A stretch of DNA of 64,000 bases from Myxococcota bacterium (lineage in GTDB: Bacteria; Myxococcota_A; Polyangia; Nannocystales; Nannocystaceae). Below the pieces are notes generated by a model that saw only the letters and a list, made by a program, of their open reading frames with translations, did no database searches and was not told where the DNA came from. A program made the translations under genes and the position numbers. Position 1 is the stretch's first letter. Every line of letters starts with the position of its first letter. The stretch covers positions 29,183-93,182 of the forward strand of contig JBCCHT010000050.1 of assembly GCA_039028615.1 (NCBI GenBank), read 5' to 3'. Of this stretch, positions 17,386 through 20,419 are shown in pieces.

Positions 17386-18477
17386 ATGCGGTGGATGGTT
17401 TCGCTCTCGGGTCTGGTGGTGGCGTGTTCCGTGGAGACGAACGATCCAGTGTTCGACCCCGCCGGGCTCGGCGATGACGACTCCACGGGGACGACCCCTA
17501 GCATCACCGCGGCGGCCGAGGGCTCCGCCACATCGGAAACCACGACCGCCCCGTCCTCCGGTGACGGAGTAGACGAAGGCTCGGGGGAGACGGACTCGAT
17601 CCTCCTCGATGTCGGCAGCACGCTCGACCTCGACCCCGGAGGCAAGGGCGGTGGTGAGGGCTGCGAGAAGATCGACTTCCTGTTCGTCATCGACAACTCC
17701 AACTCCATGTCGGACGAGCAGGCCCAGCTCGTCGCGGCCTTTCCCGGCTTCGTCGATGCGATCGTCGACACCCTGCCCGATGCCACCGACTTCCACGTGG
17801 GCGTGACCCGAACCGACGTCCAAGGCTTCGACGATACGCCCACCCCCGACCCCAGCAATCCCTGCGCCTACGTCATGGGCGGGCTGCTCAGTCATGGGAC
17901 CGAGCCGGACGACCACAGCGGGCTCGGCCCCGACTGCGGCTTTTCTTCGGGTGCCAACTACATGGTCAACTCCCCGTCGCTCACCGCCGAGTTCGAGTGC
18001 GTGGCCCCCGTGGGCACCCGCGGCAACACGGGCGAGCGACAAGCCGAGGCCACCCTCGCCGCGCTCTCGCCCGCCGCCGCCCAGGCCAGCGAGTGCAGCG
18101 AGGGCTTCCTGCGCAGCGACGCGCTGCTGGTCGTGGTCGTCATCACCGACGAAGACGACGACTGGAGCGCCCCCGACACGAGCCCCGCCGTCGACGTGCA
18201 GGCCTGGACCGACGAGCTCACCGCCGCCAAGGGTGGGATCGAGAGCAACGTGGTGTTCCTGCTCATCTCCGGGGGCTCGCCGTCCTGGGACACCTGCGGG
18301 CCGCTCGACTTCGGCAGCATGACCGGCGCCGACGACAGCCCCAAGCTCACCGCCTGGGCCCAGAACTTCAGCAACCACGTGCTGGGCAACGTCTGCGAGG
18401 CGGGCTACGAGGCCTATCTGCAGACCGCGATCTCCACCATCGAGACCGCCTGCATCGACTTCGAGCCCGAGGGTTGA
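17386..18477 (+). CDS. Myxobacterial lipoprotein with vWA-like domain
   Basis: Lipobox VVAC, Ser/Thr/Gly linker, KIDFLFVIDNSNSM (DxSxS), FLRSDALLVVVVITDEDD. Confidence 0.85.
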   Translation: MRWMVSLSGLVVACSVETNDPVFDPAGLGDDDSTGTTPSITAAAEGSATSETTTAPSSGDGVDEGSGETDSILLDVGSTLDLDPGGKGGGEGCEKIDFLFVIDNSNSMSDEQAQLVAAFPGFVDAIVDTLPDATDFHVGVTRTDVQGFDDTPTPDPSNPCAYVMGGLLSHGTEPDDHSGLGPDCGFSSGANYMVNSPSLTAEFECVAPVGTRGNTGERQAEATLAALSPAAAQASECSEGFLRSDALLVVVVITDEDDDWSAPDTSPAVDVQAWTDELTAAKGGIESNVVFLLISGGSPSWDTCGPLDFGSMTGADDSPKLTAWAQNFSNHVLGNVCEAGYEAYLQTAISTIETACIDFEPEG

Positions 18478-18562
18478 GGCGCTGATTCCGCTCCGCCCAT
18501 GGAGTGCAAATCAGGCCGCGAAAGGCCGTAACAACGCCCCGGTCGATCCTGTTCTTTGGCCG

Positions 18563-20419
18563 ATGGCCTCGTCTCCGCGCTCCCGAGCATCCCTGGTCGC
18601 CGTCACCGGATTGTTGGCCCTGGCAACCTGCCAAGACGAGGGCCTGCCGCCGTGCAACGCGCCACATGGCGACTGCCCGGTCGCCAGCACCGAGACCTTC
18701 GTCGACCCCCTGGTGCACGTGGGTCGAGCCGCCGGCCCCACCTTCATCGAGATCGTCGACGTCGTCACCCACGGCGACCTGGTGCTGGCGTGCACGGGCA
18801 CCAAGGGCCTGACCATCTGGGACGCCTCGGGCGATGGCGCGCCCCGACTGCTGTCGGAGAAGATCGGTCCCACCCACCAGGGCCTGGCCAACGGCAGCTT
18901 TCCCCGCTGCCAGCACGTGTCCGTCGACCCCACGGGTACTCGGGTGGTGATCACCAACCGCGGCGACGAGATCCAGCCCACCCCGTGGCTGTGGGTCTAC
19001 GACATCTCCGATCCGCGCAGCCCCGACGACATCGGCGGCTGGACCGACCTCAGCTCGATCGAAGGCGTGGTCTACAACGATGGCCTCGTCTACGCCGCCC
19101 TGCACGGCACGGGCGTGCTCGTCTACCGGGTGACCGAGGCGGGTGGAGTCGACATCCAGGGCGGCTACAAGGACGAGTTCTCCGACGCGTGGCAGCCTGC
19201 CCTGGCCGGCAACCACCTCTACGTGGCCGAGGGCGCGACGGGCCTGCGGATCTACGACGTCGAAAGCGGCGATCCAGAGCTGCTGTCCACTCTGCCGCTA
19301 CCGGGCTCGAGCCGTGACGTGATCGTCGAGGGTGACCGGGCCTATGTCGCCGACTCGGCCGGGATGGCGATCGTCGACATCAGCGATCCTCGCGACCCGC
19401 AGCTGCTCAGCCAGATCGACTCCGACGGCACCTCGCTGGCGCTGGCCATGGGCGCGGACGATACGGTGGTGATGGCCGAGTGGGACCAGGTTCGCGGCTA
19501 CGACGTCTCCGACCCGACCGCGGTGGAGACCGTCTTCGCCGAGACCGTCCCCACCGACGACGAGTTCTCCCGCGTGCTCGCCATCGATGCCGACCGCGAC
19601 CGTCGGCGGGTCTACGCGGGCGAGTGGCGCGGCCTTCAGGTGTTCGACCACGTGTCGGGAGGCCATGGCCCCGACATCTCGATCACGCCCAACGTGCTGC
19701 AGTACGGCCTGCTGACGGGAGGCGAGAGCGACTCGCGGGTGGTGGTCGTGCGCAACCGCGGCGACGTTCCCCTGACCGTGCACGACGTGGTCGGAGGCCC
19801 CGGCGTCACCGTGGACACCGAGTGCTTCCAGGTCCCGCCGGGCGGGGCCACGGCCATCGAGGTCACCTTGCAGGTCAACGACCACGACCAGGTCGACACC
19901 GGCCTGAAGTTCTGCTCGGACGACCCAGACGAGAGCGAGCACGTCGTCTCGCTGTCGGCCAACGTGCCCGGCCTGGGCGTGGGCGACGAGGTGCCCGCGT
20001 TCGCCCTCCAAGATCTCGACGGCAATACTTGGTCCACCGAGCAGCTACGCGGCAATATCGCGGTACTCGCGTATTTCGCCACCTTCTGACCCGTCTGCAG
20101 TCTGGAGTTTCCAGACCTCGAAACTCAGATCTGGCAGCGCTACGAGGACCAAGGGGTCGTCGTCTTGGGCATCGCCGGGGCGGGCCTGTTCGGCAACGAG
20201 ACCTCCGCGACCCTGGCCGCCTTCGTCGAACAAACCGGAATCACGTTCCCGGTGCTTCGAGGGGATGCCTCGTACTTCGACTACGCCAACCCGGACGGGG
20301 CCATCTCCCCCTTCCCGCTGGACGTGATCATCGATCGAGAGGGGCGGATCCGCTACCTGCGCCACGAATTCGACGGAGACGCGATGACCTCTGAAATCGA
20401 GCGTCTGCTGGCCGAGTGA
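18563..20419 (+). CDS. Putative selenoprotein: lipoprotein with LVIVD repeats, Ig-like domain and C-terminal TlpA/redoxin domain with U-x-x-C (Sec at TGA 20087-20089)
   Basis: ORFs 18563..20089 and 20165..20419 are in the same frame, separated by a single TGA. Read-through gives GDEVPAFALQDLDGNTWSTEQLRGNIAVLAYFATF-U-PVCSLEFPDL...GVVVLGI...ITFPVL...FPLDVIIDREGRIRY, a complete TlpA-like fold. A SECIS-like hairpin follows. Confidence 0.85.
20100..20116 (+). promoter_or_regulatory. Candidate bacterial SECIS element
   Basis: GTCTGGA-GTT-TCCAGAC: perfect 7-bp stem starting 10 nt after the UGA; the loop begins with GU, 17 nt after the UGA. Confidence 0.72.

What the first reader, a model, noticed from the sequence alone, without database searches (positions are those of the whole stretch)
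18563..20419. Hidden selenoprotein: exported LVIVD-propeller / Ig / redoxin fusion with a U-x-x-C active site
Seen: the ORF track ends this gene at TGA 20087-20089, but the TGA sits exactly where the first Cys of a TlpA-type WATW-C-x-x-C motif belongs (YFATF-TGA-PVC). The same frame continues for 109 more codons that complete the thioredoxin fold (SLEFPDL, GVVVLGI, ITFPVL, cis-Pro region PFPLDVIIDREGRIRY). Known: UxxC thioredoxin-fold proteins are a major class of bacterial selenoproteins and are routinely split by gene callers. Inference: a 618-aa membrane-anchored, extracytoplasmic seleno-oxidoreductase. It has a lipoprotein signal (LALATC), about 6-7 LVIVD-like blades, an Ig-like spacer (VRNRGDVPLTV...SDDPDE) and a Sec-redoxin. 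I do not recognise this domain combination as characterised. The propeller could recruit substrates, for example the many Cys-rich surface proteins encoded nearby.
Basis: partly seen in the sequence, partly recalled or inferred. Interest (0 to 1): 0.9.

Follow-up and report, generated by a model that had tools for sequence, protein, structure and literature searches.

The report
Selenocysteine redoxin docked on propeller lipoprotein
The apparent stop codon in this gene almost certainly encodes selenocysteine, making one exported redox protein whose active site is predicted to sit on a seven-bladed propeller; it belongs to a widespread family that protein databases usually cut short, within a known kind of selenoprotein.

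Summary
Confirmed. TGA 20087-89 is in frame at the first Cys of a redoxin CxxC, with 109 sense codons after it. The genome has selA, selB, selD and tRNA-Sec, and two full-length paralogs with TGA in the same column. Of 87 distinct family loci fetched, 85 have TGA and 2 TGC. The hairpin after the TGA meets the published bacterial SECIS rules and covaries. All 34 of 401 phylum genomes with the gene have selA. The model is a 7-blade propeller + Ig + redoxin. In a natural Cys homolog, the redoxin's active-site helix is predicted to dock on the propeller's conserved top face (score 0.92, best control 0.01), as in the solved NHLRC2/SOQ1 structures, though it is not a member of that family. Best reading: a cell-envelope, cleft-gated Sec thiol-disulfide reductase; substrate unknown. 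No neighbour genes are conserved, so the 'nearby Cys-rich clients' idea is unsupported. UxxC redoxin selenoproteins are known; I did not find this fusion in print. This scan reported the same family earlier from other genomes.

The parts
18563..20419 (+). Whole gene: 618-aa selenoprotein when TGA 20087-89 is read as Sec
   Evidence: homolog frames close 99-116 codons after the TGA, with TAA or TAG in 10 of 20 loci
18563..18631 (+). Probable lipoprotein signal peptide ending in Cys23 (atypical Thr at -1)
   Evidence: Cys in 64 of 66 rows with a residue in that column; closest relative has VTAAC; lipidation is inferred
18704..19654 (+). Seven-bladed LVIVD-type beta-propeller (aa 48-364); conserved top-face residues E63, R133, E167, H181, W210, W307, R337
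18791..18910 (+). Cys77 (18791-93) and Cys116 (18908-10): probable structural disulfide between blades 1 and 2
   Evidence: both present in 77 of 85 full-length rows, both lost together in 6 Sec-type rows, 2 rows trimmed at C77; the bond itself is inferred
19670..19963 (+). Ig-like spacer (HYDIN/ASH/choice-of-anchor D type), aa 370-467
   Evidence: its two Cys are not conserved (16 of 78 and 11 of 78)
19970..20416 (+). TlpA/ResA-like redoxin domain with U509-P-V-C512, docking helix 514-523 and aromatic-Pro loop 584-585
20087..20089 (+). In-frame TGA read as Sec509
20100..20116 (+). Upper stem-loop of the bacterial SECIS (7-bp stem, GUU loop, apical G at 20107, 17 nt after the UGA); lower stem extends to about 20137
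   Evidence: consensus rules from PMC13188914

Best explanation
One gene encodes an exported, probably lipid-anchored selenoprotein. SelB binds the in-frame SECIS hairpin just after UGA 509 and inserts Sec (strongly supported by comparison, about 0.97; not shown by experiment). The chain folds into a compact unit: the Ig spacer returns the TlpA-like redoxin onto the top face of the 7-blade propeller, and helix 514-523 (conserved E515, P517, D518) sits on the conserved cup (R133, E167, H181, W210, W307, R337). This leaves U509-x-x-C512 at the rim of an inter-domain cleft (predicted, about 0.8). It works as a dedicated cell-envelope thiol-disulfide reductase or isomerase: Sec509 attacks a substrate disulfide or oxidised thiol admitted by the cleft, Cys512 resolves the intermediate, and the DsbD-type membrane transporter re-reduces it (inferred from TlpA, PilB and SOQ1 precedent). 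The cleft covers part of the usual thioredoxin substrate face, so the client is likely a specific peptide or small molecule, or the domains open to admit a protein.
For: Sec machinery in the genome: selA 1.8e-93, tRNA-Sec 68.6 bits with TCA anticodon, selB 2e-18, selD 7e-115. Three paralogs here, all TGA. TGA in 19 of 20 loci among relatives, in 47 of 47 motif matches in the GTDB scan (the motif favours Sec forms) and in 52 of 53 matches in an even phylum sample. All 34 genomes with the gene have selA, against 248 of 401 overall (kin are not independent). SECIS: 88% of cells paired, 21 cells with double-sided changes, 0 of 500 shuffles as high, slid controls 15-52% paired. Over 85 TGA loci the six core pairs hold in 76-85 loci each, the apical G in 84, and the codon at +7 is TTT in 46 and never TTC, whereas Phe at -4 is TTC in 75; genome usage of AGT, TTT and CCA is 2.7%, 9.7% and 3.4%. 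Cys forms exist (11 of 64 representatives of at most 750 aa) and are scattered on the tree (10 changes, at least 7 forced). 63 of 67 non-self propeller-pocket hits end exactly at the Sec column, so this propeller travels with the redoxin. Full-length model pLDDT 94, pTM 0.91. Propeller + redoxin of natural Cys homolog P0041, folded as two chains: score 0.92, best of 3 controls 0.01; the mark was reached by 116 of 157 solved complexes and 2 of 215 mismatched pairs (counts only rough with my own alignment); runs agree in at least 95% of contacts; partner pLDDT at least 83. Seven conserved polar or aromatic propeller residues map to that interface. One DsbD-type gene is present.
Against: No experiment shows Sec insertion, export, activity or substrate. 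The docking pass may reflect likeness to solved Trx-propeller structures such as NHLRC2 and SOQ1; it was run on a 30%-identical Cys homolog, and only 12 of the 59 alignment rows extend past the CxxC. Mean conservation at the interface is only slightly above the rest (0.48 vs 0.41 in the propeller, 0.52 vs 0.50 in the redoxin), and the redoxin helix is also constrained by the SECIS. NHLRC2, the closest architectural analogue, showed no insulin-reductase activity (PMC6107167). The copies in G002 (the closest relative) and G010 are broken upstream of the TGA. G026 (83% complete) has a TGA copy but neither selA nor tRNA-Sec was found; tRNA-Sec was also not found in G001 and G013 (72% and 71% complete). 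The lipobox is atypical here. The genome's DsbD-type protein appears to lack the N-terminal Ig domain (113), and which membrane the protein sits in is unknown, so the electron source is not secured.
Confidence: 0.55

Rival explanations
1. Same selenoprotein, but a peroxidase or sulfoxide-type antioxidant enzyme: Sec509 reduces peroxides or oxidised Met/Cys residues held in the propeller cleft, comparable in outcome to SOQ1 or PilB.
For: Best Pfam match is AhpC-TSA, with weak GSHPx and peroxiredoxin matches. SOQ1 lumenal domains have methionine sulfoxide reductase activity (10.1101/2024.11.01.621559 abstract). The cleft looks better suited to small substrates.
Against: The motif is U-x-x-C with C512 in 85 of 85 rows, not the peroxiredoxin T-x-x-U or GPx U-x-x-T listed in PMC13188914 Table 1. 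SOQ1's activity depends on a Cys pair in its Ig-like domain; the Ig Cys here are in 16 and 11 of 78 rows.
Confidence: 0.2
2. Folding catalyst (isomerase or oxidase) for the Cys-rich exported proteins of these bacteria, with the propeller recruiting unfolded clients.
For: The window has several Cys-rich exported-looking ORFs. Some homologs carry long Cys-rich N-terminal extensions (L102, L103). Several paralogs occur per genome (up to 5).
Against: No conserved neighbours over 42 loci apart from tandem paralogs and pairs of close kin. The conserved propeller face is predicted to be occupied by the redoxin. Immediate neighbours are a DegT aminotransferase, a hydrolase, a transporter and an unassigned lipoprotein.
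Confidence: 0.13
3. Intramolecular relay: the Sec-redoxin regenerates a catalytic Cys77-Cys116 pair or a metal site in the propeller, which is the true enzyme (as the TlpA-like domain of PilB recycles its fused MsrB, or like the LVIVD-type binuclear hydrolase 5HRM/5IOJ).
For: C77 and C116 are in 74 of 75 rows of A2 (43) and lie on the face that meets the redoxin; neighbours G79, F113 and Q117 are in the predicted interface. PilB precedent (PMC6210582). 5HRM/5IOJ are among the three best sequence matches of the propeller profile (E 1.6e-6, 3e-6), and 5IOJ aligns over 311 of 328 residues (Z 32.3, rmsd 2.6).
Against: Both Cys are lost together in 6 Sec-type members that keep UxxC (104). Neither is named in the predicted interface (an unnamed residue is uncertain). 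The 5HRM match is repeat-level, and its Z ranks 20th among generic WD40 propellers. At the blade position of its metal ligands (ligand identity recalled) this protein has mostly V, W, R or L.
Confidence: 0.1
4. The TGA is a true stop (nonsense pseudogene or split gene), or an assembly error.
For: Databases hold the 508-aa product. Two relatives have broken copies.
Against: TGA in 85 of 87 family loci, whose proteins are mostly 25-60% identical to this one; covarying SECIS; intact downstream domain; selA in all 34 carriers; contigs read TGA.
Confidence: 0.02

Closest known systems
Predicted bacterial UxxC thioredoxin-fold selenoproteins: 'Prx-like thiol:disulfide oxidoreductase' (PF00578), 'Redoxin family protein' (PF08534), 'thiol-disulfide isomerase-like' (cd02966) in Table 1 of PMC13188914
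   Same: PF00578/PF08534 domain, UxxC motif, in-frame SECIS, truncation by gene callers.
   Different: Here it is the C-terminal domain of a 618-aa exported fusion with an LVIVD propeller and an Ig domain. No entry among the 119 in the table names such a fusion. None of the 11 NCBIfam models matched reaches its cut-off.
NHLRC2 / SOQ1 (TlpA-like Trx + NHL propeller + beta-stranded or Ig-like C-terminal domain)
   Same: The same three fold types; the CxxC sits at the cup of the propeller with conserved residues lining the cleft (PMC6107167; 10.1101/2021.03.16.435614); SOQ1's domains are extracytoplasmic (lumenal) and membrane-anchored.
   Different: Seven LVIVD blades against six NHL blades; order propeller-Ig-Trx against Trx-propeller-Ig; F-U-P-V-C against CCINC; no conserved Cys pair in the Ig domain. 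Analogy, probably convergent.
TlpA/ResA/CcmG extracytoplasmic reductases and the N-terminal domain of Neisseria PilB
   Same: ResA is the best NCBIfam match (NF002854, E 5e-18, 65 bits against a cut-off of 170); membrane-anchored TlpA fold; PilB shows such a domain fused to its client and fed by DsbD (PMC6210582).
   Different: Sec instead of Cys; a fused propeller rather than Msr domains; no ccm, sco or dsb neighbourhood seen.
OS_HP2 / DUF1573 UGC selenoprotein (NF041425)
   Same: Weak match of the Ig domain (E 2.4e-6, 27.8 bits against a cut-off of 100).
   Different: There the Sec is in a UGC motif of the Ig-like protein; here the Ig domain has no TGA.

Membership tests
Bacterial selenoprotein (SelB/SECIS) | In-frame UGA aligned with Cys in homologs | tested here: met
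   85 TGA and 2 TGC family loci; 11 full-length CxxC representatives
Bacterial selenoprotein (SelB/SECIS) | SECIS: 3-9 nt loop with G(U) in the first two positions, 4-16 bp stem, 16-37 nt from UGA, MFE <= -7.5 kcal/mol | tested here: met
   GUU loop, 7 bp, 17 nt, -13.3 kcal/mol for 45 nt; covariation; rules. The folding z-score of 84 nt alone is only -1.47
Bacterial selenoprotein (SelB/SECIS) | selA, selB, selC and selD in the genome | tested here: met
Bacterial selenoprotein (SelB/SECIS) | Selenium shown in the protein | not testable with these tools
   needs MS or 75Se labelling
UxxC redoxin (PF00578/PF08534) | Domain above the Pfam cut-off with UxxC at the active-site position | tested here: met
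   61.4 bits (cut-off 26) and 46.1 bits (26.6); C512 in 85 of 85 rows
ResA/TlpA/DsbE NCBIfam families | Score at or above the curated cut-off | tested here: not met
   ResA 65.5 of 170, TlpA 18.6 of 230, DsbE 20.5 of 359
NHLRC2/SOQ1 | CC(I/V)NC motif, six-bladed NHL propeller, Trx before propeller | tested here: not met
   F-U-P-V-C, seven blades with LVIVD match and no NHL match, reverse order
NHLRC2/SOQ1 | CxxC domain packed on the propeller cup, conserved residues in the cleft | tested here: met
   by prediction only, on a Cys homolog
Peroxiredoxin / GPx selenoproteins | TxxU (Prx) or UxxT (GPx) motif | tested here: not met
   motif is UxxC
OS_HP2/DUF1573 selenoprotein | UGC motif in the Ig-like domain; NF041425 cut-off | tested here: not met
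   no TGA in the Ig domain; 27.8 of 100 bits
Sphingobium-type binuclear propeller hydrolase (5HRM/5IOJ) | His/Glu metal ligands on the top face | tested here: inconclusive
   fold and repeat similarity only; ligand list recalled; no coordinates available
Bacterial lipoprotein | Signal peptide with lipobox Cys | tested here: inconclusive
   Cys23 conserved in 64 of 66 rows, but Thr at -1 here; no signal-peptide predictor was run

The most novel reading that the evidence does not exclude
This is a distinct class of cell-envelope selenoenzyme with a composite active site, Sec at the mouth of a propeller cup, that reached the NHLRC2/SOQ1 architecture independently with another propeller type and domain order. 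It acts on a specific small-molecule or oxidised-residue substrate held in the cup, and it is one of the larger uncatalogued selenoprotein families of Myxococcota-like bacteria. It would give a Se-labelled bacterial handle on what thioredoxin-on-propeller enzymes do.
Probability: 0.3. Interest if true: 0.75.

Novelty: new variant of a known kind. Interest (0 to 1): 0.55.

Why it matters
It adds a widespread, multi-copy, exported selenoprotein family (34 of 401 sampled phylum genomes; also contigs labelled Acidobacteriota and others) that databases mostly store as a truncated 'choice-of-anchor D' or hypothetical protein. It gives an unusually clean natural series of SECIS covariation in which RNA pairing drives paired amino-acid changes (S/G with D, V/A with E, N with D coded GAT) in the helix that also docks on the propeller. 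If the docked cleft is real, it parallels NHLRC2/SOQ1, whose chemistry is only partly known. The principle (UxxC redoxin recoding) is established, so the surprise is moderate.

Tried and rejected
Literature: 'selenoprotein'+'LVIVD' 0 papers; 'selenoprotein'+'Myxococcota'+'selenocysteine' 0; the four deep-Sep supplements hold none of six terms (LVIVD, choice-of-anchor and four taxon names). Searches listed no paper on this fusion by title or abstract start, and 98 returned only unrelated preprints. Haft and Tolstoy 2025 (PMC12013261) is not held, subscription journals are not searched, bioRxiv supplements are closed, and I did not open the GOS datasets, where members could sit unnamed. Fold searches gave only generic 7-blade propellers; NHLRC2 and SOQ1 were not among the rows shown, which does not exclude them. 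ESM Atlas: generic LVIVD clusters; the best cluster for a Cys homolog scored 0.80, a lead only. No match in plasmids at 1e-20. No RNA holder listed. Neighbourhood clustering found nothing conserved. The first homolog search timed out; the first maximum-likelihood tree did not finish, so FastTree was used. My genome-wide SECIS scan is too permissive to be a test (158 of 1156 TGA candidates had a hairpin). Rejected: TGA as a general sense codon (it ends many frames here, including this gene, and tRNA-Trp reads CCA); read-through of the final TGA (homologs end there with TAA or TAG); a SOQ1-like relay through the Ig Cys (not conserved). Dropped before counts: 86 of 150 representatives longer than 750 aa, and one TGT hit in L042 that is a neighbouring TlpA-like gene. 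No atomic coordinates were available, so U509 distances were not measured.

Full report
Observation. The frame from ATG 18563 has a single internal stop, TGA 20087-20089 at codon 509 (AYFATF-TGA-PVC), and then runs 109 codons to TGA 20417-20419. Pfam places LVIVD repeats, a HYDIN-type Ig domain (370-464, just under its cut-off) and AhpC-TSA/Redoxin domains (473-614) that span the TGA. Logan contigs agree: one from run X1 (possibly the source sample) covers 18400-20125 with no differences, and a 151-nt contig from another study covers 20028-20178 with two differences, none listed at the TGA.

Sec machinery. The genome (12.3 Mb, 68% GC, 96.7% complete) has selA, tRNA-Sec with a TCA anticodon, selB and selD. 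Several of the closest named relatives of the protein lie on contigs labelled Nannocystaceae or Myxococcota. Two more full-length paralogs (C1, C14; 34% and 32% identity) have TGA in the same column.

Family. Among 41 genomes (own plus 40 relatives), 11 match; 19 of 20 distinct loci have TGA and 1 has TGC. A GTDB scan gave 42 loci with 47 motif matches, all TGA; that motif favours Sec forms. An even sample of 401 phylum genomes gave 53 matches in 34 genomes, 52 with one TGA and 1 without; in the 29 loci read, the TGA is in the Sec column in 28 and one is TGC. All 34 genomes are in the selA-positive list (compared by eye), against 248 of 401 overall; kin are not independent. Exceptions: G026 (83% complete) has a TGA copy but no selA or tRNA-Sec found, and tRNA-Sec was not found in G001 or G013 (72% and 71% complete). 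The copies in G002 and G010 are broken upstream of the TGA. Of the top 150 protein representatives, 64 are at most 750 aa: 49 end exactly at the Sec column, 11 are full-length CxxC proteins and 4 are other; the stop codon of the 49 is inferred. Of 67 non-self hits to the conserved blades, 63 end at that column and 4 have other C-terminal tails. Cys forms are scattered on a FastTree tree of 85 full-length rows (10 label changes, at least 7 forced by strong branches).

SECIS. A 7-bp stem with a GUU loop lies at 20100-20116, its apical G 17 nt after the UGA. It meets all four consensus rules quoted in PMC13188914, although the folding energy alone is unremarkable (z -1.47). The comparative signal is strong. 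In 19 loci, 88% of cells pair and 21 change on both sides; 0 of 500 shuffles reach these values and slid controls pair 15-52%. Across 85 distinct TGA loci the six core pairs hold in 76, 79, 85, 84, 79 and 85; six loci use a shifted hairpin; the two TGC loci do not form the stem (2 of 6 pairs in L095). Codon choice is forced: at +7 TTT occurs 46 times and TTC never, while Phe at -4 is TTC in 75 of 85; AGT, TTT and CCA have genome usages of 2.7%, 9.7% and 3.4%. Pairing couples residues +4 and +9 (S or G with D-GAC, V with E-GAA, A with E-GAG, N with D-GAT).

Structure. AlphaFold on 78 sequences gives pLDDT 94 and pTM 0.91 for the mature chain (Sec modelled as Cys): seven blades, an Ig sandwich and a thioredoxin fold (propeller alone). 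Conserved non-repeat residues (E63, C77, R115, C116, H118, R133, E167, H181, W210, W307, R337, W355) fall in b-c and d-a loops by the secondary-structure list, which is the top face. C77 and C116 are kept together in 77 of 85 rows and lost together in 6 Sec-type rows, which fits a dispensable structural disulfide. Folding the propeller and redoxin of natural Cys homolog P0041 as separate chains scored 0.92 against a best control of 0.01; that mark was reached by 116 of 157 solved and 2 of 215 mismatched pairs (rough with my own alignment), the runs agree in at least 95% of contacts, and partner pLDDT is at least 83. Mapped to this protein, the interface is E63, F113, Q117, R133-Q138, E167, H181, W210, W307 and R337 against A506-F508, P510, V511, L514-I523, G541-G559, D578-S582 and H601-D606. 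The pass may come from likeness to solved Trx-propeller structures, only 12 of 59 rows cover the redoxin past the CxxC, and mean interface conservation is only slightly raised.

Mechanism. Directly seen: the frame, the hairpin, the machinery and the conservation. Predicted: the fold and the docking. Inferred: lipidation (Cys23 is conserved but Thr at -1 is atypical), Sec509 as nucleophile and Cys512 as resolving residue (established thioredoxin chemistry, own knowledge), and re-reduction by the single DsbD-type protein, which appears to lack the N-terminal Ig domain. I put a cleft-gated thiol-disulfide reductase or isomerase at 0.55, a peroxidase or sulfoxide reductase at 0.2, a general folding catalyst for Cys-rich proteins at 0.13, a relay to the propeller Cys pair or a metal site at 0.1, and a true stop at 0.02. 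No neighbourhood is conserved over 42 loci.

Comparison with what is known. UxxC PF00578/PF08534 selenoproteins are catalogued, but none of the 119 entries in Table 1 of PMC13188914 names a propeller or LVIVD fusion, the fusions described in PMC2398784 are different, and no NCBIfam model reaches its cut-off. It resembles NHLRC2/SOQ1 in having a CxxC at the propeller cup but fails their defining motif, blade type and domain order. What I saw of each paper: PMC13188914, passages and section 7 parts 1-2 of 3 with the whole table; PMC2398784, PMC6107167, PMC6210582, PMC11277490, 10.1101/2021.03.16.435614 and 10.1101/2022.05.06.490989, passages; 10.1101/2024.11.01.621559, abstract and outline; PMC2447325, abstract; PMC12013277, four supplements searched; PMC12013261, nothing (not held). 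The lipobox consensus, the cis-Pro assignment of P585 and the 5HRM metal ligands are recalled, not from a call.

Earlier notes. This scan reported what reads as the same family from other genomes (e1-3386726, e1-1398381, e1-7819805). I saw them after forming my reading; they are unchecked AI notes and are not used as evidence.

Verdict. A real, mis-annotated selenoprotein of a large family that I did not find in print: a new architectural variant of a known kind. The most interesting open point is the predicted Sec-on-propeller cleft and its substrate. Interest 0.55.

Noticed in passing
G000 C18:139362(-), C6:131401(-), C68:22945(+), C23:169194(-): Other likely Sec codons in this genome: two AhpC/TSA-like W-U-P-x-C sites, a DsbA/DsbG-like Q-U-P-Y-C site with an 8-bp hairpin, and a C-S-C-S-U-G site after a 946-codon frame with a 10-bp hairpin.
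   Followed up: no
L111:892-2211(-): The only DsbD-type gene found has the membrane and C-terminal thioredoxin parts (WCLPC) but apparently no N-terminal Ig domain.
   Followed up: partly
L006 (G000 C12:10471-11406): selD lies in a 627-aa open frame with no internal stop, so it is probably a Cys-type fused SelD.
   Followed up: no
L029, L030, L031, L034, L036: Tandem pairs of family paralogs, both with TGA and SECIS.
   Followed up: partly
L102, L103: Family members with several hundred residues of Cys-rich repeats between the signal peptide and the propeller.
   Followed up: no
L089, L092, L097, L099, L100, L110: A subgroup with a shifted SECIS hairpin (GGUC loop); the five placed on the tree form one clade that has lost both propeller cysteines.
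   Followed up: partly
L011/L027/L045 (G002) and L012/L046 (G010): Copies broken upstream of an intact TGA and SECIS; in G002 residues of about 140-304 are not matched. Decay or assembly error is not resolved.
   Followed up: no
window:20028-20175: Summed contig depth in run X1 more than doubles over the TGA and SECIS because other contigs match only there, a sign of nucleotide-level conservation.
   Followed up: no
window:27298-37602: By sequence motifs, a nitrate/nitrite reduction cluster (Fe-S protein with membrane anchor, molybdopterin enzyme, NirB-like reductase, sigma-54 activator, NarK-like transporter); read from translations only.
   Followed up: no
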